Of a DNA stretch of 64,000 nucleotides, positions 18,457-61,571 are shown piece by piece. Origin of the DNA: a virus (taxonomy: Duplodnaviria > Caudoviricetes); IMG/VR virus record IMGVR_UViG_3300037424_001021, positions 12,161 to 76,160 of that record; one strand, written 5' to 3'. How positions within the stretch are numbered: position 1 is the first letter of the stretch; the number at the start of each line of letters is the position of its first letter. The position numbers and the translations under genes are program-made. The notes under the pieces are model-generated. The model was not told where the DNA came from. It worked only from the letters and a program-made list of their open reading frames with translations, and did not search any database.

Positions 18457-18882
18457 ATGTCTAAAGTTACAGAAACTGAAGAAGTAAAAGAAGTAGAAGA
18501 AAGTGGACCACCTAATCTTCCTTCTATGTTGAAGAAACTTGAAGGCCACCCTTCTGATGAACAGATTGAAACTTGGAAGCAGCAATATGGAGAAGTATTT
18601 GTTTCTGGTTTTTCGGAAACAGAGTTGTTTGTATTTCGTCCACTTTCTTGGAAAGAACATAAAGACCTAACAAAAGCTCTTTCCACTCCAGTCGAGGAAG
18701 GCGAAGAACCAAAAACTGAGTTTGATTTACAAGAACTTGTAGTTGATACCTGCTTGCTATGGACTTCAGTTCCAGAATTTCACAAAAAAGGCGGAACTAT
18801 TCCAACATTGTTTGAGCAAACGATGGCGAACTCAAATTTCGTAGCCCCTCAAATTGCGTTGTCGTTTGTAGCTAAATTATAA
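18457..18882 (+). CDS. Tail assembly chaperone
   Basis: IETWKQQYGEVFV..FVFRPLSWKEH..ELVVDTCLLW pattern, size and position between tube and tape-measure slot. Confidence 0.7.
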   Translation: MSKVTETEEVKEVEESGPPNLPSMLKKLEGHPSDEQIETWKQQYGEVFVSGFSETELFVFRPLSWKEHKDLTKALSTPVEEGEEPKTEFDLQELVVDTCLLWTSVPEFHKKGGTIPTLFEQTMANSNFVAPQIALSFVAKL

Positions 18883-18891
18883 AGAAGAAAC

Positions 18892-19305
18892 ATGTTTAAT
18901 TTATTTCCTCTTTTTAAAAAAGAAAACAAAAAAGAAGATTATCAGTATACTTGCAGTTTTTTTTCAGGTGCAGATCTGAAGTTTTATTTAGAGTTACAAA
19001 ATGGTCAAAAAAAATACATACCAGAATTTCGAGAAATTTCTTGGAAAGAAGACTTGATCGAAAATCAAGTGAGAGGTCAATTGATTTTTATTATTTTTGA
19101 CAGAGATGCACTTGTTCCCTTTTTACAAGATGTCAAAAATATTCATTTAAAAGTTGCTACTGCAGTTAAAAGAATTAGCGAATTAAAATTTGAAAATGTA
19201 ATATTTACCGAACGTAGAGAGAGTCTATCAGTTGACGATTTAATTTCAGAAATACACTATAGTTTTACCGCTCAATCTTGCACTTCTTGGAAAAAACTTC
19301 AATAG
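18892..19305 (+). CDS. Minimal tail-tube paralogue lacking the long beta-hairpin loop
   Basis: SFFSGADLK, EFREISW, RGQLIFIIFDRDAL and LSVDDLISE match 15730, but the REKAPIYTMG..RGKR loop is absent. Confidence 0.65.
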   Translation: MFNLFPLFKKENKKEDYQYTCSFFSGADLKFYLELQNGQKKYIPEFREISWKEDLIENQVRGQLIFIIFDRDALVPFLQDVKNIHLKVATAVKRISELKFENVIFTERRESLSVDDLISEIHYSFTAQSCTSWKKLQ

Positions 19306-19316
19306 TCCAATGCAAT

Positions 19317-20210
19317 ATGAAGACCATTTCGGATTTACGTGAAGATTTCGGCGCAGTTTATATAATTGAATTATCTGATGGTCAAATAGTTCCTTTTCGT
19401 CTTTTAACAATTCAAGAATATATAAAATATGATGAAGACTTTAAACGAGGTCTTATTGCTATTCCTTCTTTAGAAGAAGAACTATTCCGCCTTTGTGTGA
19501 AAAATTCTTTTTTAATTGAGAATATCAATTTACAAAAGGCGGGGACTATCAGCTCTGTTGTATCACAGATAATGCAACAATCAGGTCCACGTAGTACCGA
19601 AGAATTCAATAGTCATCTAAATTTTAGTAGAAATAAATTAAATAATAATATCTTTCATCAAATGACTTCTTTGATTTGCACGGCTTTTCCTGCATATAAA
19701 CCAGAAGACGTAGAAGCCTTAACTTATGAAACTTTCATTTTGCGATTAGTTCAAGCAGAAGTAACCTTATTGAGAACTGGTTATTTAGAACAGCCCTTGG
19801 CGTTGATAAATAATGCAGAAGAAATTACAGAAAAACCTCGCAAAATAGAGAATACTCAATTAAAACAAGCATTTGAACAACAACAATTGAGACAACAAGC
19901 TGAACAAAAAGTTCCTCAAAGTCAACGCAGAGTTCGAGAAGATTTGACACATTACCCCAAAGAAAAAGTACAAGATGGCAGAGTGATAATCAGCAAAGAA
20001 GAATTACGAACTAAAACTTTTTCTGGTGCCGACCTAGAAGATGCCGACTTATTTGAGCACGCGATGCTTACTGAAGCTGTTGATATCTATAAAGATTATT
20101 TAGAAGATGTAAAAGCTGGTAAAAAAGTTATAATTAAATCTCCAGAAGAGAAGTTAAAAGAAAGACGAATGAAAAGCAAAACTAGAAACTCTAAATTATC
20201 CAAAAAATAG
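19317..20210 (+). CDS. Second tail assembly chaperone paralogue with C-terminal extension
   Basis: N-terminus (DLREDFGAVYII..PFRLLTIQEY..EEELFRLCV..KAGTISSV) parallels 18457; ATG 19317 preferred over the TTG at 19278. Confidence 0.6.
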   Translation: MKTISDLREDFGAVYIIELSDGQIVPFRLLTIQEYIKYDEDFKRGLIAIPSLEEELFRLCVKNSFLIENINLQKAGTISSVVSQIMQQSGPRSTEEFNSHLNFSRNKLNNNIFHQMTSLICTAFPAYKPEDVEALTYETFILRLVQAEVTLLRTGYLEQPLALINNAEEITEKPRKIENTQLKQAFEQQQLRQQAEQKVPQSQRRVREDLTHYPKEKVQDGRVIISKEELRTKTFSGADLEDADLFEHAMLTEAVDIYKDYLEDVKAGKKVIIKSPEEKLKERRMKSKTRNSKLSKK

Positions 20211-20222
20211 CAGGTAATTCAA

Positions 20223-23200
20223 TTGGCCAGATTTCCTTATGTTTATAGTTTAGCAAGCGGCAGAGTTTACTATGGTTCTGCTTTGCCTTCTAATAATCAA
20301 AATAATCAACCTCAATATTGGACAAATCAACCTCAAATTCCTGTAACTTCTAATTTTCAAGTATTAAAAAATACTGCAATTACTGGTGGAGTTTTAGGTA
20401 CAATTGGAGCAATCGGATTTCTTCCAACAAAAACAGGCAATGTTTGGGATAAATATTTGCATGGCATGCGTGCAATTGAAGAGTTTAGTCCTGGTGGAAT
20501 CCTTCGAACTTTTCAATTAAGTAATGTCTTTAGTCCATTATCTTCTACAGTTAAAAAGGCTAATTATCATATTACGCCAGAATTATTAGCGAATAATCCG
20601 ACTTATTTAGAATATCTTTCGCGATTAATTGGAGGTTCTGATACTAAATTTAAATTATATCAACAAGGAGTAACTTTTCGAGGTGGGAAATTACATTGGG
20701 GAACTGGGAATGAACTTGCATTACGTTATTCCAGTATGTTGCTTTCTGCTGGTCATGGAACTGCTCAAAGAATTGGAGCAGCATATGCAAGAAATTTAGG
20801 ATTACAGAGCAACGTTCCACTTGAACATTTTTTTGCTAATATTCAACCTCGCCCTGAATTAGCAGAATTGATCAATCCTTCAATTGAAAAAGAAGCGTTT
20901 CAAGTTATTGGAGGACAATCTCGTTTACAATCGTCATATCGTTACATAAGTGCAATTGGGACTGAACAAGTTGATAGATTTAATCGTCTTCTAAATGCTC
21001 AATCTGATATTCCAATTTTAAAAGAGGCTTTTGGAAAACTTCAAACTTCTTGGAAATCTGTTTTTGGCAAACCATTTAAATTAGGAGTAAAAGAAACTGG
21101 CGGTTTGCGTATGTTTGGCAAGCTTGGTTTTAAATATGGAGTTGGTTTAACTGCCTTAACTCTTGGATATCAGACTTTAGATTGGACAGCAAGACGCTCG
21201 GAATTATTAGATGATACAGTTTTGGATGAAGGTTTAACTGTAGCAGGAGCTACTGTAGGTATAAAAGCAAATCTTGCTATTTCTAAAATAGCAGAAAAAT
21301 TAGGTTTACACTCTTATCGAGAAAAACAAGAAGAAATTGCACCTGGATCTACTTCGTTAACTAAATTAGCTGCATTTCCTATAATGGGAGCATTAGCTCC
21401 TATTGGAGGGTTATATGCTTATAAAACTACTAAAATGGCTTCTCTTATTAGACAAGGATTAACTCCTGCTGCTGCCCGAGAAACTGCACAAGAAGCAATT
21501 AGTTCTTGGAAATCTGGACCTTTACTTGAACAAGTAGGCAATATTTTTGCGAAAAAAGGCGGATTATATTCCAACGGAGGAATATTAGATAATCTAATAA
21601 AGAAAATAGCATTTCCAGATAAAGCAGGTAATTTAATCTATAAAGGATTGGGCAAGTTAACCCCAGGTAAACTAGGTGCTGCAATGGGAGCGTCTATTGG
21701 ATTAGCAATGATTGCTCCATTTTTACCTGGAGCACTTATGCCATCTCAGCGTCCTGATGAATTAGAAGCGTTATATTCTGGTAGAAAAGAAATTGCAATT
21801 CGAAAAGGCCGAGGATGGCTTATGGGCAGAAGTAAATTTGAAGGGGAAAAACCTATTACATTTTTGCCTCATTGGTTTCCTCGGATGAGAATGAGAGCAA
21901 CAGAAAGAGGATTATGGGGACCTGAAGAAGATGAACGTAGCCCGATTTCTAAATGGTTAGCAAAAGAAACGAGTTACGAACTGGAGTTACGTCATTATTA
22001 TGATCGGCCATATGGTTTAACCGGAACTTTCGGAGAAGATTTACCATTGATAGGTCCATTAGTCGGAGCAACTATCGGAAGGCTCATTAAACCTCCGCGC
22101 CCAATGCATGAATCAGAATTTCAGGGAAAAGGCGGGGAATTTTTAGTCCCTCAACCCAGATATGGAGAAAGAATAAACACTGAAATAGGACAACAATTAC
22201 CAGGTAAACCAGTGTCTCCATATAGTCCTACTCAAGTAGCAGGTGAACAAATATATCGAATGTGTTTTACAAAAGATACTTCAATCAGAATGGCCGATAA
22301 AGCGTATAAAAAAATTAACGAAATTAAAATCAATGATGAAATTTGGCAATTAAAACAGCCTAAAAGAGTAAAAAATATATTTATACATAGCCAAACAGAA
22401 GATGAACAATTAAAAGAAATTCAAGTCTATGGAGATTGGAGAAAGTTAAAAGTTACAGATAGTCATATAGTTTTAGCCTTGCAACCGAAATTCTGTTCTG
22501 CAAAAACATATAATTGTATACCTAATGGAAGTAGAGAAAGTTCTAAATGCAAAAAATGTAAAAACAAACTGTATCAAAAATATCAATTAGAGTGGATACC
22601 TGTTAAAGAATTAAAAAAATGGGATTATCTAATTCAATATATTCCAAAAGCGAAAGATAGCAAAAAAGAGTTATACCTCCCAGATATATTGAATATGGAC
22701 AATTTTGAAATTATCGATAATCAAATATATCGACGAATACAAAAGTCGTTTGTTCGAAAATCAAATGATTATATCAATTTTAAAGGAACTGAAATACATC
22801 GTAAGGGTAATGAGTACTCAGCTGACTACATAGATAGAAATGCAAAAACACTGCCATTGTCAATTCCGCTAAATTGGGATTTTGGATGGCTATGTGGATA
22901 TTCTTTAGCCGAAGGTTCTCCAAGAGCTTACCAAGTTAGCTACGCAGCTCATATAGATGAATTAGATTCTCATTTTAAAAAATTATTCGATTTAATGAAT
23001 CTTTTTTTTAATGAAAAAGAAATACGTTGGATAGTAAAAAAAGATGGAGAACAAAAATTAACAAACGGAATTGAAGCGATTATAAATCATACCTCTCTAG
23101 CTGAACTATTGAGAAGTCTTTTGGGAATCCCTAGTCATAAAAAAATTAATTCTATTTTGTTAAATTCAAACAAAGAATTCTTATTAGGATTGCTTAATGG

Positions 23201-26200
23201 ATTTATCGATGGAGATTTTCATATCAGGGAAAAAGAACTCTCTTGCAATCAATCAAATCAAATTTTACAAGAGCAACTGCGAGATATCTTTTTTAGTTTA
23301 GGGATACAGGTTAATACAACTTATGTAGAAAAAACTAATGGTATTCCAGATAAATTATACTATGCTTATGGATTTAATTTATATCGCAATGAAATATTTA
23401 AATTAAGACAATTAGGCAAATCAGGATTTAAATTATCAAAAGATATTGCGACTGGAAAAACTAAATCTACAGAAAGCTTTTTAGAAGAATATCCTGATTA
23501 TTATATTTTATATAAAAAAATAAAATCAATTAAGAACTTGCCTTCTACCGACTTTCTTTATGATTTAGAAATAGAAGACAATCATCATTACTACGCCGAA
23601 GACTGCGTAGTACATAACTCCGAGATGGTGGGTTTGCCGGGCTTCATAGAGTCATCTATTAAAGAAAAATTAACTGGAACACAAGACTGGTTTGACCAGT
23701 TTGCTCAATTGGAAACTTCAAGAAGAATGGGGGGTTCTGAGAGAAATTACTGGGATAGAGAACTTGGAGATATTTTCGGAACCTCGGAGACTATTAGACG
23801 CTTTTTCCCGCATCGTCGAAGAGGTATAGATTTATACAATCCAATTACTAATACTCAACCTTGTCTATTGCCAGATACCGAAGTTTTAATGGCAGATGGG
23901 AAATGCAAGAGAGCCGAAGATATAAAAATTGGAGAAAAACTTATTTCTCATAAAGGAGAAGAAGTTTTTGTAGAAAATATAGGAAAATTCCCAACATCCA
24001 AAGTCGTTCATCTCTCTCTGTATGGAGATAATTTTCATAAATTAGATTTTTCTCCAAATCATCCTATTTTAACTGATGAATTAATTTTCAAAAATGCTGA
24101 AGATATCAGAAAAGGAGATTACGTAGCCTTTCCTATTCGCAATTATGAAAAAGAAATACCAACGTACAAAATAGATATTTCAAATTTTCTCAATATAAAC
24201 TGCTCAAAAACAGACAAATATTTATATTATGGAATTCAATCTTCCAATTATATGGAAAATGAAATTGCAGAAAAGTATAAATTTAAAATTAAAGAAATTC
24301 CATTAGAAATAAAACATAAATATCCAAAATTATACAAAATATGCAATTATAGATTAAATAGTAATCGGAAATCTTCGTATAAAAGAATTTTAAGAAATTG
24401 GGATATTGAAGATTTTTATTATCTTATTGGAGTTTATATTACAGAAGGTTCTGTTTTTTCGCTAAGAGATAAGTCTTTTAAACTTTCTGGTCATAAACAA
24501 GATAAATGGGAAGAAAGAATAAAAAATATTTTCAATAAATACGAGATTAAATATTCAATAGAAGACTCAATAACAGGAACAGGAAGAAATTTTCAGATTA
24601 CCAATCCTATTCTTTTTAATATTTTAAGAGATATCTCTCCAGGTCATGCAAAGGAAAAATATATTACTGAAAATATTCTTAATCATTCTAATCCTGAAAT
24701 TGCCATAAAATCACTAATTAAAGCACTGATAGATGGGGATGGTTGTTATTTTAAAACCAAAAGCAATAGAATTAGATGTCAACTAAAGACAACTTCTAAA
24801 AATTTAGCCTATCAATTTAGAAACCTTGTAATAGATGTATTTCATTTTGCTCCTTCAATTACTCATTCTGTTTTTAAAGAAAAAGAAAGTTTTCATATAT
24901 CGCTTTCAGGTTTAAATGCAAATATTTTAGCAAAAGAAATTGGATATCAAATTTTCGACTATACTCCTAAACAAAATAACAATAAACAATATTCAGATAA
25001 TTCATACATCTATATCAAAGTAAAAAAAGTCTTAACTGAAGAAAAAGATACCTATGTAATTGGTCACCAAGTTGCAGGAGACCATACTTTTTGTGTATCT
25101 TTAATAGCTACTCATAATACGTGGATGCCCGGAGCTGGAGATAAAAGTCCAGATTTTAGAACTGGTGATCCTATGGTCAAAATTCCATTTGGAGAAATGA
25201 GATTACCTGGACCTGGCATAGAAGCAAGATATCCAGAATTAGAAGGAGTTGCTCCAGAAGATTACAAACCCGCCTATCGCTATAAAATTCTATGTTTAGA
25301 TGCTAAAACTCTTGTTATCACAGATAGCGGAATGAAATCTATTCAAACTATTCTTGAAACAGATCAAGTTATCGGAGAAGATGGCCAATATCATTCAATA
25401 CTTTCAAAAATTCATAATACTAGAATAGATGATAAATATAAATTATATACATTTTATAATTTCGAACCTTTGATCTGTAGTGCGAAACATAAAATTTTAA
25501 CTTCAGATAAATCTGGAAATATAACTGAGAAAGAAGCGCAAAATATTACACAAAATGATTATTTAGTTTTTCCTAAAAGTTCTTTTGGGAATAAAAAAAA
25601 TCTATGTATAGGAGACTACTGCAACACAGATGACGTAAATATTCAATATATAAAAGGAGTGTATTCAGCCAAAGCAAAAGGTTCTCAAAATTTTATACCT
25701 TTTAACTTAGAAGTTAATTACAACTTAGGATTTATTTTTGGATTATATCTAGCAGAGGGAGGGATTTCTAGATCAACTGTAATAACTTTTACATTTAACA
25801 TCGAAGAAAAAAATACGATAGCTAAAAAAGTAGAAGAATTTTGTAATCAAATAGAACTTCCATATACTACTAGGGAAACTACCACTAATAGTTATCAAAT
25901 TATCATTAGCAATAGGCTTCTAGCAAGATTTTTAGGAGAAAATTTTGGATATACCCAATATACTCATCATATTAAATTAGATTATTTAAATTATTCAAAA
26001 GAATTTGTTCAAGGAATTTTCGATGGCCATTTTAATGGAGATGGATATATGGCTTGTACTCAAAGCACTATCAATGGTAGATCTACTTCGGTTTGTAAAG
26101 GCTTAATTGAAAATTTAAGATTAATGGGTCTAATGTTAAATATAAATGGAGCTATTAATTTAAGAAAAGGAAAGTATATTGGCCAACAAGGTTACACTTT

Positions 26201-27851
26201 TGATATCCAAAGACGAGATTTAAAGAAAATTAAGATGGATAAAATTCATTTGAATTATATTCCAAAATATAAAGAGTCTCAATCTAATAAATATAATTTT
26301 GAGAATGAAACTTTTCGTTTTGTTAGAGTTTCAAAAATAGAAATAGAAGAACAAGTTAATTGCGACTGGTATGACATTGCTATTGATGGAATAAACAATA
26401 TTCATAGATTTGTTACTTCTCAAGGACTTGTTCACAATTCTGATGTTGCGCCATATAGTGATGCTTTTAAAACTGCTAAATTAGAAGTAATGCGCGCCCG
26501 AAAAATGAAATCTTGGACAGAAAGAGATGAAGAATTATTTACTCAAGCAACTGATCAATTAAAAGAAAAGAAACAAGGACAACAATTTCAAGAATATCAA
26601 TATCTCAATGAGATGGGCGGGTTAAGTGATAGCCCAGGTAAACAGTATGCGTCTCAATTATTAACAGAAATAAATGAAACACAAAAGAAAGGTATATCTT
26701 TTAATCAGTCAACTTTAAAAAATACAATAGGAAGTTATTGGGAATTATTAAGTCATAATGCAGAAACTGCTTTAGATCAATTAACTCCAGTATCTCCAGG
26801 AGCAAAATTAGTTCATCAACGTTCAGCAATTGAATCCTATGAAAGAACTCAATTGTACGGTCAGTCTAATGCCTTTTGGCAACATCCTGTAAAAGATTTT
26901 CTTGCCCCATTTGCTCGTTCAGTCTCTCATGCATTTGGTTATGAAGGAGAAAGTCCAGGTATACGCGAAAAGAGAGATATAGAAAGTTACTTTGATGTTT
27001 TAAAATATATGAAAGCTTCACGACTTGCAAATATAGCAAGGCAAGCTAAAGACGAAGAAGCTGTAAAAGAATTTGAAACTCAAAAAGACCAAACTCTTTT
27101 TGGCATAAATCCATTTACACGTAGATATGGAGACTTATTACGAGCATTGCCAAGAGCAGAACGTGATTATCTTGGAGCATTTGAAAAAGCTGATACTTAT
27201 GACGAGCGTGCAAAAATTCTTAAAATGGTTCCTGAAAATGAAAGAGGATTGTATCTTGCTCGATGGAAGTTAACCGAAGCTGACGAAATTCGTAGAGCAC
27301 AAAAGGCGGGTATTTTATCACAAGACCAACTTAAACAAGCGGATAAAGAATTAGAACAATTTTATGGAGAAGCTAAAACAGAAGGGTTTCCATCTTCAAA
27401 AGAATTATTTGCAGAGTATTCTGCAACTCGTTCTTATAATGAAAATTACGGAGATTGGTATAGAAGAATTTATCTATTGCCGAAAATTCCTAATCTTCCA
27501 GGGTCAGACTGGGTAGGATTTACTCCCCAGGTTGATTTAGAAGATATCAAAATGAAAGTCGTCAAAGAACATGGAAAAAATATTCATGATTACAATTTAT
27601 GGGAATCCAGAGAAAAACAACTTGCCTATAAGTCGTATATCAATGAAGAAGTAATTGCTCCAATTATGAAACCTAACCAGTTATCAATAGAAGAAAGAAA
27701 AAGTCAAATCAATGACGTATTACTTGCCAATGAAATCAAAGGTAGTACATTTATTAGAAGAGACAAAACTAGTAATAATTCTATAGATATTCATATAGAA
27801 CAAAATAGAGATAAAGAAAAAGAAAAATTGATTTTAAAAGCATTGGATTAA
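20223..27851 (+). CDS. Giant tape-measure-slot protein precursor with three inteins (2542 aa; 1289 aa if spliced)
   Basis: Follows chaperones; several Gly/Ala-rich hydrophobic segments (e.g. LGAAMGASIGLAMIAPFLPGAL); three C...HN[S/T] intein blocks; TTG start with AGGT upstream. Confidence 0.75.
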   Translation: MARFPYVYSLASGRVYYGSALPSNNQNNQPQYWTNQPQIPVTSNFQVLKNTAITGGVLGTIGAIGFLPTKTGNVWDKYLHGMRAIEEFSPGGILRTFQLSNVFSPLSSTVKKANYHITPELLANNPTYLEYLSRLIGGSDTKFKLYQQGVTFRGGKLHWGTGNELALRYSSMLLSAGHGTAQRIGAAYARNLGLQSNVPLEHFFANIQPRPELAELINPSIEKEAFQVIGGQSRLQSSYRYISAIGTEQVDRFNRLLNAQSDIPILKEAFGKLQTSWKSVFGKPFKLGVKETGGLRMFGKLGFKYGVGLTALTLGYQTLDWTARRSELLDDTVLDEGLTVAGATVGIKANLAISKIAEKLGLHSYREKQEEIAPGSTSLTKLAAFPIMGALAPIGGLYAYKTTKMASLIRQGLTPAAARETAQEAISSWKSGPLLEQVGNIFAKKGGLYSNGGILDNLIKKIAFPDKAGNLIYKGLGKLTPGKLGAAMGASIGLAMIAPFLPGALMPSQRPDELEALYSGRKEIAIRKGRGWLMGRSKFEGEKPITFLPHWFPRMRMRATERGLWGPEEDERSPISKWLAKETSYELELRHYYDRPYGLTGTFGEDLPLIGPLVGATIGRLIKPPRPMHESEFQGKGGEFLVPQPRYGERINTEIGQQLPGKPVSPYSPTQVAGEQIYRMCFTKDTSIRMADKAYKKINEIKINDEIWQLKQPKRVKNIFIHSQTEDEQLKEIQVYGDWRKLKVTDSHIVLALQPKFCSAKTYNCIPNGSRESSKCKKCKNKLYQKYQLEWIPVKELKKWDYLIQYIPKAKDSKKELYLPDILNMDNFEIIDNQIYRRIQKSFVRKSNDYINFKGTEIHRKGNEYSADYIDRNAKTLPLSIPLNWDFGWLCGYSLAEGSPRAYQVSYAAHIDELDSHFKKLFDLMNLFFNEKEIRWIVKKDGEQKLTNGIEAIINHTSLAELLRSLLGIPSHKKINSILLNSNKEFLLGLLNGFIDGDFHIREKELSCNQSNQILQEQLRDIFFSLGIQVNTTYVEKTNGIPDKLYYAYGFNLYRNEIFKLRQLGKSGFKLSKDIATGKTKSTESFLEEYPDYYILYKKIKSIKNLPSTDFLYDLEIEDNHHYYAEDCVVHNSEMVGLPGFIESSIKEKLTGTQDWFDQFAQLETSRRMGGSERNYWDRELGDIFGTSETIRRFFPHRRRGIDLYNPITNTQPCLLPDTEVLMADGKCKRAEDIKIGEKLISHKGEEVFVENIGKFPTSKVVHLSLYGDNFHKLDFSPNHPILTDELIFKNAEDIRKGDYVAFPIRNYEKEIPTYKIDISNFLNINCSKTDKYLYYGIQSSNYMENEIAEKYKFKIKEIPLEIKHKYPKLYKICNYRLNSNRKSSYKRILRNWDIEDFYYLIGVYITEGSVFSLRDKSFKLSGHKQDKWEERIKNIFNKYEIKYSIEDSITGTGRNFQITNPILFNILRDISPGHAKEKYITENILNHSNPEIAIKSLIKALIDGDGCYFKTKSNRIRCQLKTTSKNLAYQFRNLVIDVFHFAPSITHSVFKEKESFHISLSGLNANILAKEIGYQIFDYTPKQNNNKQYSDNSYIYIKVKKVLTEEKDTYVIGHQVAGDHTFCVSLIATHNTWMPGAGDKSPDFRTGDPMVKIPFGEMRLPGPGIEARYPELEGVAPEDYKPAYRYKILCLDAKTLVITDSGMKSIQTILETDQVIGEDGQYHSILSKIHNTRIDDKYKLYTFYNFEPLICSAKHKILTSDKSGNITEKEAQNITQNDYLVFPKSSFGNKKNLCIGDYCNTDDVNIQYIKGVYSAKAKGSQNFIPFNLEVNYNLGFIFGLYLAEGGISRSTVITFTFNIEEKNTIAKKVEEFCNQIELPYTTRETTTNSYQIIISNRLLARFLGENFGYTQYTHHIKLDYLNYSKEFVQGIFDGHFNGDGYMACTQSTINGRSTSVCKGLIENLRLMGLMLNINGAINLRKGKYIGQQGYTFDIQRRDLKKIKMDKIHLNYIPKYKESQSNKYNFENETFRFVRVSKIEIEEQVNCDWYDIAIDGINNIHRFVTSQGLVHNSDVAPYSDAFKTAKLEVMRARKMKSWTERDEELFTQATDQLKEKKQGQQFQEYQYLNEMGGLSDSPGKQYASQLLTEINETQKKGISFNQSTLKNTIGSYWELLSHNAETALDQLTPVSPGAKLVHQRSAIESYERTQLYGQSNAFWQHPVKDFLAPFARSVSHAFGYEGESPGIREKRDIESYFDVLKYMKASRLANIARQAKDEEAVKEFETQKDQTLFGINPFTRRYGDLLRALPRAERDYLGAFEKADTYDERAKILKMVPENERGLYLARWKLTEADEIRRAQKAGILSQDQLKQADKELEQFYGEAKTEGFPSSKELFAEYSATRSYNENYGDWYRRIYLLPKIPNLPGSDWVGFTPQVDLEDIKMKVVKEHGKNIHDYNLWESREKQLAYKSYINEEVIAPIMKPNQLSIEERKSQINDVLLANEIKGSTFIRRDKTSNNSIDIHIEQNRDKEKEKLILKALD
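22263..23618 (+). mobile_element. Intein 1 (452 aa) with LAGLIDADG homing endonuclease
   Basis: Starts CFTKDTSIRMAD; block B VTDSH; LCGYSLAEGS and LLNGFIDGD; ends YDLEIEDNHHYYAEDCVVHN followed by Ser. Confidence 0.92.
23862..25118 (+). mobile_element. Intein 2 (419 aa) with LAGLIDADG homing endonuclease
   Basis: Starts CLLPDTEVLMADG; SPNHP; LIGVYITEGS and LIKALIDGDG; ends HTFCVSLIATHN followed by Thr. Confidence 0.92.
25293..26438 (+). mobile_element. Intein 3 (382 aa) with LAGLIDADG homing endonuclease
   Basis: Starts CLDAKTLVITDSG; SAKHK; IFGLYLAEGG and IFDGHFNGDG; ends WYDIAID..HRFVTSQGLVHN followed by Ser. Confidence 0.92.
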
Positions 27852-27854
27852 GAT

Positions 27855-30800
27855 ATGCCGCCGCCAAAAAAAGAAACAAATAGTGGAGATTCATTTTTAA
27901 AAGCCGCAATTAGAGTAGGCACCGCTGGTGGATTATATGCTTCGTATAGAAAAGGTAGAGATTTAAAAACAGCAAAAAATTCATTTATCGAAACAAGTCA
28001 AGCGGTTGCTAAACCTTCAGGATTTGCTAACAAAACCGAATATCTTGCTTTTCTTGAACAGCACAAGGAATTTATGCAAACTCCAGAAGGAGCAGAATTA
28101 ACAAAACAAGCTTGGTTAAGAGCAGCAGAAAATGTCTCGCCTTCGTCTAAAAATCTTCTTTCTTTTACTTCAAATTTACAAAATGCGGCGGGTACTAATG
28201 TTTATTCTGCAATTGAAGCAACAATTCAACGTAATGAATCTAAGTATATAGGACGTACTGTTTTTCAATTTAAAAGAAATTTTAATGCATTTCGTTCTCA
28301 TTATTCGTTAACTAAAACACTTCCTCAATTTACTACAGCACCTGCAACAATGGCTGGAGTAGGAGCAGGGAAAGATGTAGCAGTTAGCGCACTTCCTTCT
28401 GGGATACAAGGTTATGTGTCTCGTATGCAACAAGAACTGGGAGGTTTAGTTAAAGCTAAATTTTATACGCGAAAAGGCTGGAAAGAAACTGGACATGGAC
28501 AATATCTTTTAACTTTCGATACTCCAAAGGGTAAATTTTCTGTAAATGTTCCACTGCAATCTCAAGGAACTGTCGTGGAAGGATTAACTCAATCTTCTAC
28601 GAGAATTGGACAATCAACTCGATTATTTGACAAAACAACAAAAGGACTTATTGGGACATATACGGCTCCAGAATTTATGCTTTATGAATTAGAAAAGACA
28701 TTAATTCCCGCAATTCAGTCAGGCAAATATCAATCTGGTTATGATATTCAAAAAGTAATCAATACTATATATGAAGAAAATATTGGTAAACTTGAAGCTG
28801 TACCTAATATTCCTGCAAATTTACGGCAAAAAGGTTGGAAATCTTATACAGGAATTAAAAGTAGAGCTGTTAGATTAAGATTATTAGATCAAGCAAATCA
28901 ACAATCAATTTTTAGAATTCCTGGTTCAGAAGAAAGAATGGCATTATTAAGAAGTAATAGAGATTTAACTCCTTTTACTTCTCCAGGTAATTTAGCAGAA
29001 GCAACCTATAGTACATATGATCCTCGTGCCTTATTGCCTACTCCAGAAGCAATTGATTTTAGTCGTTCGCCTCGTCAAATGAACAGAGAATGGAAGGCAA
29101 CCGAATATGCATCAAGAGCAATAAGAAATCTTGGTAGAAGTAAATTTGAAACAGTGCAATGGCAAAGAGATATGGGAGTTGGTTCGTCTCCTTTATTGAA
29201 AGCAATTTATATAGATCCAGAACGTCATTCTGATTTACTTCAAAAATTCGGTATGGCAGAAGGCGAACATTTGTTTGCAGAAAATCCAGAAGTTCGAAGA
29301 ATGCTTCAATCTGAAAGAATTGGTTTTTCTGGTAATTTAAAAAGTATCACTCCTAATCTAGAAAAAAGAATTCGAGAAGGACGATTTACTCCAGGCGAAA
29401 TTCTTGGAATGACAACAGAAGGAGAAGCCTATAGATATCAGAAAGGAATGAATCTTCTTGGATTACAACAAGTTTCAACTAAAGGTAAAGGAGCTTTTTA
29501 TCAATTAAGTTATAAAGAAGTTTATGATTTTTCAGAAGCAGAAAAAACTTTCGGAACTAAAGGAATGGGCAAGTTTGTTAATGAATTTAATGTTCAAAAA
29601 GAAATTGCACCATTGACTCAAAATGCACAGATAACTCAAGGTTTTCAAACTGTTATTAATATGGATATACTCAAAAAAGACAGACAGCTTCATAATCAAC
29701 AAATGCTTGGTGCGCTACATGAAGCAATAGTTATTAGATTTAATCAAGGAGCTAATCTTTCTGGTTGGGAAAAACGTTTCTATGAGAATCCAGTTGGTAT
29801 AGGAAATATGTTAAGTAAACAAGCTACGACTGGAAATATATATAGTCATGAGAATTTTGTGGCTAATTTAATGAGATTAGCAACTCAAAAACTAAAAGTT
29901 AATCCAGAAGAATTTGGCGTAGCATTTGGTTCTGTTCCATATACGATGGGATTAGAATGGGCACAGCAGCAAATGGAATCATTAGCTCTCTCTCAAGCAC
30001 ATAGAATGTCTTTGTTTTCTGGAATTTCTGGAGGATTAGCAAGAACAGTATTTGCAGGTCCTCATTCAAGGAATGCAGGAACACTGGGAGCATTAGAACC
30101 CCGCGTTTTTGAACAACTAACCGCAGGACAATTTGGACCTATGGGAGATCAAATTGCAGAAGATTTATTTAATAGACTTCGGGTTACTAATCCAGAACAA
30201 TTTGAGACTTTTGAAGCTTTGACTAAATCTTTACGTTCAATGACGGGAGTAATAAAACCAGGAAAAGGAGAAGAAATTTGGGATTTATCGAATATAAACA
30301 AGATTTATGAATCTCAAGCTTTTCAAGAACAAATAGAAAAAGGAAGTTTCTGGTTACGTACTGGAAAGTTTGGGATACCAGATATATACGTTCCTGGAGT
30401 TGCCGAAGCTTCAAGGTTCGAGAGATATAAGACAGCAGGGGGCGAAGCCTTCAGAGGAGATATATCAAGTTTATACCATGATTATGCGCGAAAGGCGGGT
30501 ACTGTATACCAAGATGTTGGACAAATAAGCAAAGAAGAACTTCAGCAGTCTTTTGAAGAATTGATTTCAGGAGTTCACAAACAACAAGCTCCATTAGGAA
30601 AAGGAGCTGGAGCTTTATTCGGAGGCAAGGTTCTTGGTTCGAGATACCTGACCGCAGTATCGTCAATTGCTGGATATACTCCTCCTAATCTCAATACTGT
30701 TGGAATTAGTCCAGAATATCTAAATCAAATGATGGAGGAAATGAAAGAAACTGGACTTTACGACACAGAAACCTTAGTAAGAAATCGGAAAATTTTAGAA

Positions 30801-32204
30801 AGAGGTGGAACTATTCCTGGCATGATCAGACGAGATCCAGCAATTGGTTCTTATTCTCAACAATTAATAAATTTCCAAATGATGAAAAATGCCGAAGGTC
30901 CAGTAATTGCAGTTCCATCTCGATTGACTCAAATCGCAATTCAGGGAGAAGAAGAGTTGAATCCAGTTAAACTTGGTCCGATGTTGGGTCTTTCTGGAGA
31001 TTATGATGGAGATACAGTTGCAGCTTTTCTTCTAAATCCAAAATTAAATAAAGATATCAATCAACATTTCACATCTCTTTCATCTAATTCGGAGTATCAG
31101 CAAGCTTATATCCAACACCAGATCAGAACACAATTAATGCAAGCAAAGGGTCTTGGAGTTAAAGGCGAAGTTGGACAAACTATATTAGATAAAATGATTG
31201 CAGATGCAGAGAAATTAGGAACTACTGAGTCTTGGGTGCCTAAATTATCAAATGAATTAACTGCAATGAAAGCAGCAGTTCATAGTAAGTTATCTAGACA
31301 GACTGCGGTAAACGCCAGAGCACTTTTAGAATTTGCAGAACAAGTGCCTGTATCAGGCAAAAAACTACCAACAGGTCAAGTTCTTAACAGAACTATGGAA
31401 AGTTTATTTCAAACGATGCATCAATCAGTGCAATCTCGTGATCCTGTTGCATTTACCAATGTTATCAATCGTATGTTGGAATCAAGTGGACCAATAACAA
31501 AAAGACTATTAACAGGAGATTTAAATATAACTTTAGAAGACCAAACTCCGATAACTTTAAAAGGGATGGATCTTGAAGATACAGTAAATCAAATGATGGG
31601 AGCTTATACTCAAGCTCAAGAAAGTGGAGAAGCTCGATTTTTTAATCAATTGCGTGGACAATCTACTATGAAAGTTTCAACTTTAAGACGATATCTATCA
31701 GCAGGTTCTGAATTCTTGCAAGAAAAAACAACAGGTATTGGTTCTATGTTTAAAATGGTTTCAGCAACAATAGCTGGAGCTAATGAGTTAATGGCTGTTG
31801 GTAAAAAAATATTAACAAGTAAAAAAGTTGGATTTGGTTTTGCAGGAGCCATTGGATTGGCAATGGCATTGTCTTCTCCTAAAGATTCTATAGGGCCAGC
31901 TGTTGGATTAAATACTCAACCAAATCTAAATCCTAATAAAGGAAGTTCAAGAGTATCTCCTGACCAGATAGCTCCTTCTCAGCCATTAGGAAGTCCTACG
32001 TCTCCAGACTTGTTTAGTTCTCCGAATGCTCGTATTGCTATGACTCCTGAATCTGGTAGAATATCAATTAGAGCAACCTCAGATAGGACTGTAAATAAAC
32101 TAATGCTAGTTTCTAATATGACTGGTTCTAATAGTTCAATAAATATAAGCGACCGTTCCGAACGTTTAAATAAACATGTTTTGATAAATAAATTGCTTGG
32201 TTAA
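27855..32204 (+). CDS. Putative virion-associated single-chain two-barrel (DPBB) RNA polymerase
   Basis: GDYDGD at 30996-31013 preceded by GMIRRDPAI and LFGGKVLGSRYLTAV (beta'-like barrel); upstream PGEILG and EKTFGTKG resemble beta-subunit motifs; hydrophobic terminal segments. Confidence 0.72.
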   Translation: MPPPKKETNSGDSFLKAAIRVGTAGGLYASYRKGRDLKTAKNSFIETSQAVAKPSGFANKTEYLAFLEQHKEFMQTPEGAELTKQAWLRAAENVSPSSKNLLSFTSNLQNAAGTNVYSAIEATIQRNESKYIGRTVFQFKRNFNAFRSHYSLTKTLPQFTTAPATMAGVGAGKDVAVSALPSGIQGYVSRMQQELGGLVKAKFYTRKGWKETGHGQYLLTFDTPKGKFSVNVPLQSQGTVVEGLTQSSTRIGQSTRLFDKTTKGLIGTYTAPEFMLYELEKTLIPAIQSGKYQSGYDIQKVINTIYEENIGKLEAVPNIPANLRQKGWKSYTGIKSRAVRLRLLDQANQQSIFRIPGSEERMALLRSNRDLTPFTSPGNLAEATYSTYDPRALLPTPEAIDFSRSPRQMNREWKATEYASRAIRNLGRSKFETVQWQRDMGVGSSPLLKAIYIDPERHSDLLQKFGMAEGEHLFAENPEVRRMLQSERIGFSGNLKSITPNLEKRIREGRFTPGEILGMTTEGEAYRYQKGMNLLGLQQVSTKGKGAFYQLSYKEVYDFSEAEKTFGTKGMGKFVNEFNVQKEIAPLTQNAQITQGFQTVINMDILKKDRQLHNQQMLGALHEAIVIRFNQGANLSGWEKRFYENPVGIGNMLSKQATTGNIYSHENFVANLMRLATQKLKVNPEEFGVAFGSVPYTMGLEWAQQQMESLALSQAHRMSLFSGISGGLARTVFAGPHSRNAGTLGALEPRVFEQLTAGQFGPMGDQIAEDLFNRLRVTNPEQFETFEALTKSLRSMTGVIKPGKGEEIWDLSNINKIYESQAFQEQIEKGSFWLRTGKFGIPDIYVPGVAEASRFERYKTAGGEAFRGDISSLYHDYARKAGTVYQDVGQISKEELQQSFEELISGVHKQQAPLGKGAGALFGGKVLGSRYLTAVSSIAGYTPPNLNTVGISPEYLNQMMEEMKETGLYDTETLVRNRKILERGGTIPGMIRRDPAIGSYSQQLINFQMMKNAEGPVIAVPSRLTQIAIQGEEELNPVKLGPMLGLSGDYDGDTVAAFLLNPKLNKDINQHFTSLSSNSEYQQAYIQHQIRTQLMQAKGLGVKGEVGQTILDKMIADAEKLGTTESWVPKLSNELTAMKAAVHSKLSRQTAVNARALLEFAEQVPVSGKKLPTGQVLNRTMESLFQTMHQSVQSRDPVAFTNVINRMLESSGPITKRLLTGDLNITLEDQTPITLKGMDLEDTVNQMMGAYTQAQESGEARFFNQLRGQSTMKVSTLRRYLSAGSEFLQEKTTGIGSMFKMVSATIAGANELMAVGKKILTSKKVGFGFAGAIGLAMALSSPKDSIGPAVGLNTQPNLNPNKGSSRVSPDQIAPSQPLGSPTSPDLFSSPNARIAMTPESGRISIRATSDRTVNKLMLVSNMTGSNSSINISDRSERLNKHVLINKLLG

Positions 32205-32206
32205 TT

Positions 32207-35200
32207 ATGTCTAATTTAAATACAGACACTTCTTTCTTTCAGTTGAACGATATCTGCTTATCTATTCCACCTGAAAGCATAAGTATTCAGCATAAATTGT
32301 ACAATAATACTTGGCAGACACTGCGTACTCGTTCTTCGACTAAAGTTAAATCTGGTTTTTCTCAGATTGAGATAATTGTAAAATGTAAATTTGCAGATTT
32401 AGTTTTATTTCCAACATCAGGTGGATTACCTACCAATAGTTTTTATGAATTAAGAAATTTAGTTTCTCAATTTAGAATTACTCCATTTTGTTACGTAGAA
32501 AATCAATATTTAAGGGATAACATTTTATCCGGCGATTTGTCGGAAAATATGGCGCTTGCTTTGCGACAATTAGAGATATTTACTTCTCCAGACCAAGTAA
32601 ACGTAGTAGATGTAATTTTTCATTTTGCATGGTTTAACTATGCGCCTTTTCTGAAAAATTTTACTTTTAAACGAGACATTTTTCTACCAGATGAAGTGAA
32701 TGATCCTAAAGATTCTCGTGCATATAGATTATTATATTTAGCAGAACAACAGCGGGTTATATACGATCCTCTGTTAAGTTTAAATGGAGATGTTAATTTT
32801 CAATTTTATGAATATAAAGTTATTTCTAAAAAACAATATCAAGCTTTAAAACATGATTACGAGTTATATGAAAAATTGCAAAATACGAATCCTGATCTTG
32901 TTATTGGTCGAGATCAATTATTAAATCTTGGATTTGCAGCAAATGAAACTAACGCCACTTTACAAAATTTATTTGGAAATCAATCTTCACAAAGTCAAGA
33001 TATTACTTTAAATGACATTATCCAGTCATTAAATTCTTCAATTCAGGATCCTACATCTTTTATTTCAACAATCCAAAAAGATTGGAAAGTTGTATATCTT
33101 GGAGGAGAACAAAAGTCAGTAAAACTGCAAACTACTTTAAAAACTGACCACGAGATTGAAGAAACAGAACTTAATAAAATTACCGAAGAAGAAATGGTAC
33201 TTCTTCAAAAAAATCACGAAATTGATTTAGCAAAAGCTGGAATTGTCGTTACAGGACTTCATATTTCATTTGAAAATATATTAGCTACTATTCCTATGTT
33301 AGGTTATAGTTATCCAACTTTTCAACATATTGGTTCTACAGATGCAGTAATTTCATTGTCATTTCAAACTGATTCAGAAGCAGGAAGTCGTACTTTATCT
33401 AATATTCTTAACATCTATAATCAACAATCTTTAACTAATAGATTTATTCCACAAGGTCATCGCAATATTCATATTACTAATGATTTACTTGGAATGTGTG
33501 GATTACGAAATTTTATCATTGAAAGCAAAAGCATTCAAACTGTTCCTGGTCAACCAGGTGTATCTGTTGGAACTTTAGTTTTCCTTGATGATTCATTAAA
33601 TGAGAATACAAGTGAACAAATTATACAAGGTCAAAGTTTTACTACAAGTTTCGATATAAGAAACAAAATTGCAAAAATTCTAGAAAAAAATCTGCAATTA
33701 GTCTCTAATGTCTTTAAATTTAATGACGAAGGAGAAGCTATTTTAAATTCAGAAGCAGCTATTAGAATAGCAACTGGACAAACTGTAGCCGTTGTTGCAG
33801 GAGTTGCTGGAGTACCAGGTTCTGTTACAAATATAGCAATAACTAAATCTTCGTATTACCGATATATTGGGATAAATGATAATAATCATCAAGTCTTTAA
33901 AAAACTTTGCGAAGAATATGGTTTAAATCTTTCTATTCTCTTAGAAGAATTAGTTGAATATTTGCAAGAAAAAGAATCTTTCTTATTGCAATTAAAAAGA
34001 TTTTTTAAACACACTGAATCTGGAAGTTCTTTTTTATATCATTTTTTTGGATTAACTAATGAAGAAATTATAGGTATCAGTAAACTTCAAGAAGACATGT
34101 ATCCAGTTTTTCAGAAAAATTCTCGAAGAGACGAGTTAAGCGATAGCAGAATAAGTTCTCTAAATGAATTGCAAAAATTCTCTCGCGAACAACTAGAGCA
34201 ATTAAATGATATAGAAACAACAGGGACTCAAACAAGTCAAACTCAAGATTTATTGCTTTCCTTTATGCAAGATAAATTTACAGAATGGCAACAATTTACT
34301 TCCGCTTTTTTGGATAAAATTTTGTATTCTGGTTTAATACATTTGCCTCAATTTAAAGAAGCTACAGATTTAATTGCAAATAATGCATTAAATAGTGGAA
34401 CTGATTGTTATCCAGATTTTCCCTTACAGAATTTAGTATCCTTATTGTCTTCTTCCAAGGATAATGATTTAAATTTAGCCTTTGAAGCATTAAACCAATT
34501 ATTTCAAACTACTGATTTGGGATTTAAGAATATCTCGTTATCTTCATTGATAAATCCTGATTTTTATTTTTTCAACAGAGTGACAGATACTATTGATGAA
34601 ATTGTTCCTTCAGATATCGTCAAAAGAGCTACAGATGGAATTATCAAAGCCAGAGAAATGATGGAGCCAGCTGAAAGTGATTGGATGAAAAAAGTTTATG
34701 AAACAAATCTTTTGACAGATATAAGAAGTAAACAAATTACTGCCGATATGGCCAAACCACTAGCAGACAAAAGTTTAGAAAAAGCATTTCAAACAAAGGC
34801 AGGACAGTCTTATAGAAATCATTTACAAAGAGCAACAATTTTTGCACCAAATCAATTAGTAGGAAGTATTACCTCTGCAATTAAAGAATCTTCATATGGT
34901 AAAGATATAATTGAATTACCTGCATTTAGTTTAAGCAACAATTCTCAAAATGTATTAACTAACGAGAGACAAGCTATTAATTTAACTGTTAATTCGAGTA
35001 TTCCTGAAATAAAACATAATTTTGATACAGAAGAGGTATTAAAACCAATTAATCAACCAAATTCTCAAATTGTTTTTAACGGGACTATCGAAACTCAATT
35101 AATTGACAGTCAAGGACATAGTTTGCAAAAAGATGCCGCTATTAATTTTAAAATTATGGCAGCACAAGCAAGACAAGAAGGTATCAATTTAGTTGTTAAT

Positions 35201-59124: not shown

Positions 59125-59125
59125 A

Positions 59126-61569: not shown

Positions 61570-61571
61570 GA

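What the first reader, a model, noticed from the sequence alone, without database searches (positions are those of the whole stretch)
20223..32204. Tape-measure slot filled by two giant membrane-segment proteins: possible ejected genome-entry plus transcription machine
Seen: between the chaperones and the hub there is no ordinary repeat-rich tape measure. Instead there are two adjacent proteins (1289 aa after splicing, and the 1449-aa RNAP candidate), both with Gly/Ala-rich hydrophobic helices and separated by 3 nt. Established: T7 and N4 use transcription for genome internalisation or early expression, N4 with an injected RNAP. Inference: the pair may be packaged in the tail lumen, form a membrane conduit, and deliver an RNAP that transcribes and possibly pulls in DNA.
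Basis: inference. Interest (0 to 1): 0.8.

Follow-up and report, generated by a model that had tools for sequence, protein, structure and literature searches.

The report
RNA polymerase in a phage tape-measure slot
In this large contractile-tailed phage, the gene that normally encodes the tail-length ruler encodes a complete single-chain RNA polymerase with a ruler-like tail end, so the phage probably injects its own transcription enzyme through the tail, as so far shown only for one unrelated long-tailed Thermus phage.

Summary
Between a gp143-like tail chaperonin and the baseplate hub lie two giant genes 3 nt apart. One is a 2542-aa ORF with three inteins, giving a 1289-aa extein. The other is a 1449-aa protein. 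Neither has repeats, and both have Gly/Ala-rich hydrophobic segments.

The 1449-aa protein is a two-barrel RNA polymerase. The AF2 model has pLDDT 91. Its N half matches RNAP beta subunits (Z 11-14.5), its C half matches beta'/Rpb1 (Z about 10), and the whole matches QDE-1 (Z 11). DxDxD is invariant in every full-length relative.

Its last ~70 residues are homologous to the C-terminus of 0305phi8-36 gp146, a mass-spectrometry-confirmed virion protein assigned as tape measure and sitting in the same slot. The family has 181 clusters, and Bacillus phage KLEB27-3 and Acinetobacter phage ME3 have counterparts.

The 1289-aa partner is gp145-like. gp145 is a virion protein. The partner is confidently folded, helical and of unassigned fold.

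Tail delivery, a membrane conduit and DNA pulling remain inference. The concept is already known from Thermus phage P23-45 gp96 (2024). This is a new family and a new architecture in myoviruses. Other first readers of this scan noted the same stretch, and nothing was found on other DNA.

The parts
18457..18882 (+). gp143-like tail chaperonin (141 aa)
   Evidence: BLASTP to ME3_33 'putative tail chaperonin' E 7e-12 and to 0305phi8-36 gp143 E 2e-7.
19278..20210 (+). 310-aa conserved protein in the gp144 (second chaperonin) slot. Function not shown.
   Evidence: Homologue at the same place in L004, E 1e-44. No Pfam hit.
20223..27851 (+). P0001: gp145-like giant protein precursor, 2542 aa, 1289 aa after splicing
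   Evidence: N-extein matches ME3_35 (E 1e-17) and 0305phi8-36 gp145 (E 2e-11). 66 relatives.
20223..22262 (+). N-extein (aa 1-680), with hydrophobic Gly/Ala-rich segments at nt 20373-20423, 21366-21416 and 21690-21740
   Evidence: In the AF2 model of the intein-free homologue, the last two segments form a helical hairpin that resembles transmembrane hairpins only weakly (Z at most 5.6).
22263..23618 (+). Intein 1 (452 aa)
   Evidence: Hint/Vint Pfam hits at aa 678-762. Begins with Cys, ends HisAsn followed by Ser.
23619..23861 (+). Extein 2 (81 aa)
   Evidence: Highly conserved in intein-free relatives.
23862..25118 (+). Intein 2 (419 aa, LAGLIDADG)
   Evidence: PF05203 at aa 1216-1250 and PF14528 at aa 1497-1536. 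Boundaries.
25119..25292 (+). Extein 3 (58 aa)
25293..26438 (+). Intein 3 (382 aa)
   Evidence: PF14890 at aa 1722-2072. Boundaries.
26439..27848 (+). C-extein (470 aa), helical. Ends in an alternating h-D/N-h-x-h ... DR motif.
27855..32204 (+). P0002: single-chain two-barrel RNA polymerase with a tape-measure-like C-terminal tail (1449 aa, 160 kDa)
28455..30083 (+). Beta-like half (aa 201-743), with invariant K564 and K569 (nt 29544-29561)
   Evidence: VIA-align: AR9 nvRNAP 7s00_C (beta-side chain) Z 14.5 (281 aligned, rmsd 4.2), phiKZ 7ogp_C Z 13.4, Pol I second-largest subunit 4c2m_B Z 11.9. Invariant columns.
30243..31754 (+). Beta'-like half (aa 797-1300)
   Evidence: VIA-align: Pol II Rpb1 9mu7_A Z 10.6, Pol I 7ob9_A Z 10.5, M. 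tuberculosis beta' 6edt_D Z 9.1. DPBB domains match model 728-873 at Z 7-8.6. Foldseek gives 114 PDB hits at E<=1e-3; the 50 rows shown are RNAP largest subunits, QDE-1 or AR9 RNAP.
30831..31013 (+). Catalytic signature: R993-x-P995 ... D1049-Y-D1051-G-D1053
   Evidence: R, P and the three Asp are invariant in a 61-sequence alignment. DxDxD is present at the same place in every full-length relative. The signature fits the [RK]xPx{20,100}DxDxD filter of PMC10770324.
31827..31877 (+). Hydrophobic Gly/Ala-rich segment (aa 1325-1341)
   Evidence: Kyte-Doolittle 1.64 over 17 aa, the only such segment in P0002. Conserved in the family consensus.
31992..32201 (+). C-terminal tail (about 70 aa) shared with tape-measure-slot proteins of related phages
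   Evidence: The family profile matches only this part of 0305phi8-36 gp146 (E 4e-9). It is the only hit in the whole 219-kb genome (E 4.7e-7). It also matches KLEB27-3 gp034 (1e-5) and Moorella CDS0031 (2.6e-5).
32207..37648 (+). Baseplate hub protein (1813 aa) with a VanY peptidase domain
   Evidence: PF02557 at aa 971-1091, E 1e-20. aa 1109-1696 are homologous to the gp147/ME3_37 hubs.

Best explanation
P0002 (27855-32204) is a catalytically competent single-chain two-barrel (double-psi beta-barrel) DNA-dependent RNA polymerase. It has taken the tape-measure gene's place in the tail operon of a jumbo myovirus of the 0305phi8-36 / ME3 lineage. It is made late with the tail proteins. It is built into the tail through its C-terminal part, a hydrophobic segment plus a conserved ~70-aa tail that it shares with the tape-measure-slot proteins of related phages. 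It is expelled into the host on sheath contraction and transcribes the first phage genes, independently of host RNA polymerase. P0001, the 1289-aa gp145-like partner, is a co-inherited virion protein that is expelled with it. Its buried hydrophobic helical hairpin may insert into the cytoplasmic membrane. Shown here: the RNAP fold, the conserved active site, the slot, the shared C-tail, the inteins and the family. Inferred: virion and tail location in this phage, ejection, early transcription, any membrane channel, and which of the two proteins sets tail length.
For: Fold. AF2 of aa 201-1300 gives pLDDT 90.8 and pTM 0.90. Foldseek finds 114 PDB hits at E<=1e-3; the 50 rows shown are RNAP beta', QDE-1 or AR9 RNAP. 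In VIA-align the N half matches beta subunits at Z 11-14.5 and the C half matches beta'/Rpb1 at Z 9-10.6. The whole matches QDE-1 at Z 11.1, RDR2 at 10.5, P74-26 gp62 at 9.2 and P23-45 gp96 at 7.4.

Active site. D1049, D1051, D1053, R993, P995, K564 and K569 are invariant.

Family. There are 181 clusters at 50% identity. The 119 full-length members have a median length of 1478 aa.

Slot. The order sheath, tube, tube paralogues, chaperonin, P0001-like, P0002-like, hub, J-like is the same in this window, L004, L005, ME3 and 0305phi8-36.

Virion link. The C-tail is homologous to that of gp146, which was found in virions by mass spectrometry. gp145 was also found in virions. KLEB27-3 gp034, annotated 'structural protein', carries NRYPT...ADYDGD and three collinear profile matches. 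ME3_36 matches by fold in BFVD at E 1e-8, and another BFVD match is annotated 'minor tail protein'.

Precedent. P23-45 gp96 is a tape measure fused to an active virion RNAP (PMC10770324).

Other polymerases. No other RNAP (PF00623, PF00940, second family copy) and no sigma region 2 was found in the complete 188.6-kb relative or in ME3.
Against: There are no virion proteomics, RNA data or micrographs for this phage or its close relatives. The RNAP core models as a large globular protein that cannot fit folded in a tail-tube lumen, so tail storage needs an unfolded or metastable state, or a place in the hub or head. 0305phi8-36 gp146, the only slot-2 protein with proteomic evidence, lacks the RNAP motif and shares only the C-tail. 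0305phi8-36 encodes its YonO-like RNAP elsewhere (PMC7824862). No repeated promoter-like motif was found in the complete relative. Equivalence of K564/K569 with the catalytic lysines of beta was not checked on coordinates.
Confidence: 0.62

Rival explanations
1. P0002 is a virion RNA polymerase, but it is carried in the capsid (as in N4, crAss-like and phiKZ-like phages) or in the baseplate cavity rather than the tube lumen. P0001, or an unseen protein, is the true length ruler.
For: The RNAP core is globular with high confidence. All virion RNAPs other than P23-45 gp96 are head-packaged (background knowledge; PMC10770324 discussion). The P0001 family also has a very narrow length range of 1228-1348 aa.
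Against: The gene sits in the tape-measure slot in every relative. Its C-tail is homologous to that of the assigned tape measure gp146. P0001 models as a folded helical protein, not an extended coil.
Confidence: 0.17
2. P0002 is a non-virion RNA polymerase that merely happens to be encoded in the tail operon. It acts late in the same infection and is not delivered to the next host.
For: It is the only RNAP detected in the complete relative, so it might serve middle or late transcription.
Against: It is a tightly conserved position inside a structural operon, 3 nt after a virion-protein gene. It has a hydrophobic segment and a tape-measure-type C-tail that a soluble transcription enzyme does not need. 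Late-expressed phage RNAPs known so far are the packaged ones (background knowledge).
Confidence: 0.1
3. P0002 is primarily a structural tape measure or ejection protein whose polymerase fold has another use, such as priming or RNA-templated synthesis like QDE-1, or is a relic.
For: The best whole-length structural matches include the RNA-dependent polymerases QDE-1 and RDR2. Some slot-2 proteins (gp146, Moorella CDS0027) do without the motif.
Against: The three Asp, R-x-P and two Lys are invariant across relatives of only 20-40% identity, which argues for retained catalysis. QDE-1 itself also uses DNA templates (title of 7y7s).
Confidence: 0.08

Closest known systems
Thermus phage P23-45 gp96: tape measure protein fused to a two-barrel virion RNA polymerase (Chaban et al., Nat Commun 2024, PMC10770324; PDB 8h2m/8h2n)
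   Same: A two-barrel RNAP with [RK]xP...DxDxD is encoded in the tape-measure gene position, together with hydrophobic membrane-type segments. Both are proposed to be delivered through the tail to transcribe the first genes. There is structural similarity: Z 7.4, 320 aligned, rmsd 4.2.
   Different: gp96 belongs to a siphovirus and is 5002 aa, with the RNAP at the N-terminus of a long ruler that also carries a metallopeptidase. P0002 belongs to a contractile-tailed jumbo phage and is 1449 aa. The RNAP fills about 75% of it, only about 150 aa of tape-measure-like tail follow, and the peptidase sits in the hub. P0002 matches AR9/phiKZ beta, QDE-1 and cellular subunits better than it matches gp96, and there is no sequence similarity, so this is a separate family. 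P23-45 has a second, non-virion RNAP, and none was found here.
Bacillus phage 0305phi8-36 gp145 / gp146 / gp147 (virion protein, hypothetical tape measure, hub; Hardies et al. 2007, PMC2147016)
   Same: Same lineage and same gene order. P0001 is homologous to gp145. The hub is homologous to gp147. The P0002 C-terminal ~70 aa are homologous to the end of gp146.
   Different: gp146 is 2537 aa, has no DxDxD or R-x-P signature and gives no profile match outside the tail. 0305phi8-36 encodes a YonO-like RNAP at another locus (PMC7824862).
Single-chain two-barrel RNAPs: B. subtilis SPbeta YonO, Neurospora QDE-1 and plant RDR2, crAss-like phi14:2 gp66
   Same: Both DPBB domains lie in one polypeptide, beta-like first and beta'-like second, with a DxDxD triad. 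QDE-1 Z 11.1 (464 aligned), RDR2 Z 10.5, gp66 Z 5.5.
   Different: None of these is encoded in a tail operon or carries a tape-measure-type tail. gp66 is head-packaged. No sequence-level similarity was found.
Acinetobacter phage vB_AbaM_ME3 gp36 and Bacillus phage vB_BauM_KLEB27-3 gp034
   Same: They sit in the same slot between the gp145-like protein and the hub. KLEB27-3 gp034 has NRYPT...ADYDGD and three collinear profile matches, including the C-tail. ME3_36 has REPAQG...GGDHDQD and a BFVD fold match at E 1e-8.
   Different: They are annotated only as 'hypothetical' or 'structural' protein. gp034 is 2434 aa, about 1000 aa longer. ME3_36 is not significant by sequence profile.

Membership tests
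Two-barrel (double-psi beta-barrel) RNA polymerase superfamily | Beta'-type DPBB carrying the metal-binding DxDxD triad | tested here: met
   DYDGD at aa 1049-1053. The three Asp are invariant in 61 aligned relatives and present in every full-length hit. Model residues 728-873 align to isolated DPBB domains at Z 7-8.6 and to beta'/Rpb1 at Z 9-10.6.
Two-barrel (double-psi beta-barrel) RNA polymerase superfamily | Second, beta-type DPBB supplying two basic residues to the active site | tested here: inconclusive
   The fold is met: aa 201-743 match beta/second-largest subunits at Z 11-14.5. K564 and K569 are invariant.
Two-barrel (double-psi beta-barrel) RNA polymerase superfamily | [RK]xP motif 20-100 residues before DxDxD (filter used in PMC10770324) | tested here: met
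   R993-D-P995 lies 53 residues upstream, and R and P are invariant.
Two-barrel (double-psi beta-barrel) RNA polymerase superfamily | Template-dependent RNA synthesis | not testable with these tools
   Needs a biochemical assay.
Phage tail tape measure protein | Gene between the tail assembly chaperones and the baseplate hub | tested here: met
   P0001 lies between the chaperonin genes and P0002, as gp145 does in 0305phi8-36.
Phage tail tape measure protein | Long, mostly extended helical or coiled-coil, fast-evolving sequence, often with repeats | tested here: not met
   Both proteins give confident globular models, with pTM 0.90 and 0.78. There are no repeats. Both families are well conserved.
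Phage tail tape measure protein | Protein length proportional to tail length | not testable with these tools
   No micrographs exist for this phage. The ME3 paper gives no tail length. Lengths are narrow within each family.
Phage tail tape measure protein | Homology to a recognised tape measure | tested here: inconclusive
   Only the last ~70 aa match 0305phi8-36 gp146 (E 4e-9 and 4.7e-7). gp146 itself was assigned by tail-length correlation only (PMC2147016).
P23-45 gp96-type tape-measure-fused virion RNAP | RNAP domain followed in the same chain by a long ruler with membrane and peptidase domains | tested here: not met
   Only about 150 aa follow the RNAP core, with one hydrophobic segment and no peptidase. 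The VanY domain is in the hub.
P23-45 gp96-type tape-measure-fused virion RNAP | Presence in virions and transcription of pre-early genes | not testable with these tools
   Needs proteomics and infection experiments.
Inteins (in P0001) | Hint splicing domain with N-terminal Cys and C-terminal HisAsn followed by Ser/Thr/Cys, plus a homing endonuclease | tested here: met
   There are three copies. Intein-free relatives have the predicted spliced length.

The most novel reading that the evidence does not exclude
The RNA polymerase polypeptide is itself the tail-lumen ruler or plug of these myoviruses. It is stored unfolded or metastable in the tube, anchored in the hub by its C-tail, and expelled on contraction. 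It refolds at the inner membrane next to a channel made by the gp145-like partner, so that transcription starts on, and helps draw in, the entering genome. The rest of the lineage (0305phi8-36) shows the ancestral state, with ruler and polymerase as separate genes.
Probability: 0.25. Interest if true: 0.9.

Novelty: new variant of a known kind. Interest (0 to 1): 0.7.

Why it matters
A tape-measure-linked virion RNA polymerase has been shown only once, in the Thermus siphovirus P23-45, where it looked like an oddity of an 800-nm tail. This is a second case: a family without sequence similarity to gp96, with a different architecture, in contractile-tailed jumbo phages. It has at least 181 sequence clusters, and two cultured phages have likely counterparts: ME3 on Acinetobacter and KLEB27-3 on Bacillus. 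This suggests that delivering a polymerase through the tail is a recurrent strategy.

It also makes two questions testable in tractable hosts. How can a 160-kDa enzyme be stored in or behind a tail tube and regain activity after ejection? What measures tail length when the ruler gene encodes an enzyme?

It adds a new family to the two-barrel polymerases that Pfam, PHROGs and sequence searches of the PDB do not detect. It also corrects 'hypothetical' and 'structural protein' annotations in published phage genomes.

Tried and rejected
Sequence searches that found nothing for P0002:
- Pfam and PHROGs gave no hit.
- phmmer and the family profile against PDB sequences gave no RNAP. The only hit was a weak calmodulin-like match at E 0.001, taken as chance.
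- tblastn against 50,697 phage records gave no match.
- The ESM Atlas gave nothing usable.

Tools and locus searches:
- The search for related loci failed with the wide alignment and with the single protein. It worked with a narrower alignment.

P0001 family:
- Foldseek PDB gave no hit at E<=1e-3.
- VIA-align best Z was 5.7, so the fold is left unassigned.
- Pfam on the single exteins found nothing.

C-terminal motif shared by P0001 and P0002: hhalign of the last 80 aa gave only P 0.016. This is kept as a lead, not a finding.

ME3_36: sequence-profile membership is not significant. It was accepted only on motif plus the BFVD fold match.

Second polymerase:
- No second family copy, Rpb1 domain 2, T7-type RNAP or sigma region 2 was found in the own contig, two relatives or ME3. 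The T7-type control rang nowhere, so that search is uninformative.
- The motif scan of the complete relative found only the P0002 homologue plus one likely chance hit.
- A 798-aa ME3 ORF that may be the second BFVD hit has no acidic triad and no relative in G000/G001.

Promoters: k-mer counting in the intergenic DNA of the complete relative gave no repeated motif.

Other:
- A DNA pattern scan of ME3 was badly designed and found nothing.
- Paralogy between the small upstream proteins, as with gp143/gp144, was not seen.
- Complex prediction was not run. The full pair exceeds its size limit and there was no specific contact hypothesis.

Full report
**Context.** The window is the structural module of a tailed phage. 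It holds a portal, a major capsid protein, a fibre, a tail sheath (13803-15701), a tube and tube paralogues, then three giant genes, then a J-like baseplate wedge and further virion proteins. The contig has 76,160 bases and is estimated at about 37% of a genome. tblastn of the flanking giants places it in the lineage of Bacillus phage 0305phi8-36, Acinetobacter phage ME3, Moorella phage MTATph1 and Bacillus phages WH1, Edson and KLEB27-3.

The annotated maps of 0305phi8-36 and ME3 show the same gene order: sheath, tube, tube paralogues, two 'tail chaperonins', gp145 (virion protein), gp146 ('hypothetical tape measure'), gp147 (hub), V-like, J-like. In the window these genes correspond as follows:
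- 16433 is homologous to gp141.
- 17563 is homologous to gp142.
- 18457 is homologous to gp143 and ME3_33.
- P0001 is homologous to gp145 and ME3_35.
- The hub is homologous to gp147.
- 38419 is homologous to gp150.

Two IMG/VR relatives have the identical order. L004 lies on a 126-kb contig. L005 lies on a complete 188,653-bp genome.

**Observation.**
- The 2542-aa ORF has three Hint/LAGLIDADG inteins with canonical junctions.
- Removing the inteins leaves 680+81+58+470 = 1289 aa.
- 57 intein-free relatives are 1228-1348 aa, and eight carry one insert.
- The stop codon and the next ATG are 3 nt apart.
- There are no DNA or protein repeats.
- Hydrophobic Gly/Ala-rich segments occur in both proteins.

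**P0002 is an RNA polymerase.** Sequence libraries are blind to it. An exhaustive HMMER search with aa 301-1200 found 181 clusters, and 119 of the listed members are full length with a median of 1478 aa. Every full-length member has DxDxD at the equivalent place.

In a 61-sequence alignment at 20-54% identity, these columns are invariant or nearly so:
- the three Asp;
- R993-x-P995, which resembles the NRxPxLH element of beta';
- K564 and K569;
- an E-P-R motif.

AlphaFold2 of aa 201-1300 gave pLDDT 90.8 and pTM 0.90. Foldseek returned 114 PDB hits at E<=1e-3; the 50 rows shown are RNAP largest subunits, QDE-1 or AR9 RNAP.

Exhaustive VIA-align split the model cleanly:
- aa 201-743 match beta/second-largest subunits: AR9 Z 14.5, phiKZ 13.4, Pol I 11.9.
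- aa 797-1300 match beta'/Rpb1 at Z 9-10.6.
- Single-chain enzymes align over the whole length: QDE-1 Z 11.1 with 464 residues, RDR2 10.5, P74-26 gp62 9.2, P23-45 gp96 7.4, crAss gp66 5.5.

This is a single-chain two-barrel polymerase with an intact active-site signature.

**Why it is probably delivered through the tail.**
- The gene holds the tape-measure slot in all relatives.
- The family profile matches 0305phi8-36 gp146 only in its last ~70 residues (E 4e-9). That is the only match in the whole 219-kb genome (E 4.7e-7).
- gp146 and gp145 were both found in virions by mass spectrometry (record notes). gp146 was assigned as tape measure from its length (PMC2147016). That paper also noted that only the last 60 residues are conserved with the prophage homologue.
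- The same tail is found at the end of KLEB27-3 gp034 and of Moorella CDS0031.
- KLEB27-3 gp034, annotated 'structural protein', carries NRYPT...ADYDGD and collinear matches to the family profile.
- ME3_36 carries REPAQG...GGDHDQD. Its BFVD model, in two pieces of 801 and 802 residues, matches at E 1e-8 and 2e-4.
- Another strong BFVD match is annotated 'minor tail protein'.

The mechanism has a precedent. P23-45 gp96 is a 5002-aa tape measure whose N-terminal part is an active two-barrel virion RNAP that transcribes pre-early genes (PMC10770324). In the library searched, that paper is the only one linking such a polymerase with a tape measure. Its survey table lists only viruses with two RNAPs and does not contain ME3 or KLEB27-3.

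**What differs from P23-45.** The host phage is a myovirus. The protein is short, and the polymerase fills most of it. Only a hydrophobic segment, a Pro-rich linker and the conserved tail follow. The peptidase (VanY) is in the hub.

The fold is closer to AR9/phiKZ, cellular and QDE-1 enzymes than to gp96. No second polymerase, sigma region 2 or Rpb1 domain was found in the complete relative or in ME3. 0305phi8-36 keeps a long gp146 without the motif and has a YonO-like RNAP elsewhere (PMC7824862). The polymerase body of the slot-2 protein is therefore variable within the lineage, while the C-tail is constant.

**P0001.** The family is unusually conserved for a tail-lumen protein, with mean column identity of 41%. 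AF2 of the intein-free homologue (L004, aa 101-1300) gave pLDDT 83 and pTM 0.78. The model is a folded, mostly helical protein.

It has no match in the PDB: Foldseek found nothing at E<=1e-3, and the best VIA Z was 5.7. Only the hairpin formed by the two hydrophobic segments resembles transmembrane hairpins, and only weakly. Its function is therefore open. A role as a membrane-inserting ejection partner is inference.

The C-terminal motifs of the two families look alike (IDIEIEQDRS versus VNVNIRDNRSS; gp145 INMNIAHDRR, gp146 NANISDDRS). The profile comparison is weak, at P 0.016.

**Limits.** No proteomic, transcript or imaging data exist for this phage. A folded 125-kDa core cannot sit in a tube lumen. 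By my own estimate, not a tool result, three copies of both proteins would fill under half of the volume of a 200-nm by 4-nm lumen, but only if they are unfolded. No promoter motif was found. Which protein sets tail length cannot be decided here.

**Verdict.** The RNAP identity is very likely, at about 0.93. Tail-linked virion delivery is likely, at about 0.6-0.7. The conduit and DNA-pulling ideas are untested. It is a new family and architecture of a kind first described in 2024.

Noticed in passing
window 38914-39960 (-): A TnpB/IS200-605-type transposase gene (phrog_506, E 1e-69) is the only minus-strand gene in the tail and baseplate operon. It lies between the gp150-like gene and the J-like wedge gene.
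   Followed up: no
L003:7714-10842 (contig bases before the window): A 1042-aa protein upstream of the portal also carries a LAGLIDADG intein. The complete relative G001 has inteins in DNA Pol III alpha, an AAA ATPase and ribonucleotide reductase, so the lineage is intein-rich.
   Followed up: partly
window 32207-37648: The hub protein carries a VanY D-Ala-D-Ala carboxypeptidase domain (aa 971-1091). Its N-terminal 470 aa match a giant 'endolysin' PHROG, so the cell-wall enzymes are in the hub rather than in the tape-measure-slot proteins.
   Followed up: partly
Acinetobacter phage ME3 (KU935715.1), about 224453-226849 (-): BFVD lists a second ME3 protein of 798 aa (A0A172Q0S6) with the same polymerase fold (E 8e-8). 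The only 798-aa ORF I found has no acidic triad and no relative in G000/G001. It may be an inactive paralogue or a non-virion enzyme, or my ORF assignment may be wrong.
   Followed up: partly
L020 (Moorella phage MTATph1) 10513-17869: The slot-2 gene appears split by a transposase insertion. CDS0027 (1309 aa) lacks the polymerase motif, and CDS0031 (313 aa) carries the conserved C-tail.
   Followed up: partly
BFVD hits: Uncharacterised proteins of Microcystis phages MaMV-DC (E 2e-5) and, more weakly, Ma-LMM01 match the P0002 model. These myoviruses may also carry an unrecognised two-barrel polymerase.
   Followed up: no
window 31600-31850 (P0002 aa ~1250-1330): The family profile gives a weak match to calmodulin EF-hand pairs (E 0.001 against PDB sequences). 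This is probably chance.
   Followed up: no
window 56759-63478: A run of glycosyltransferase, methyltransferase and nucleotide-sugar epimerase genes follows the structural module.
   Followed up: no
window 18892-19305: The 137-aa protein between the chaperonin-like gene and the 310-aa gene matches the tube-family PHROG 9206 (E 4e-6). It may be a further tube paralogue rather than a chaperone.
   Followed up: no
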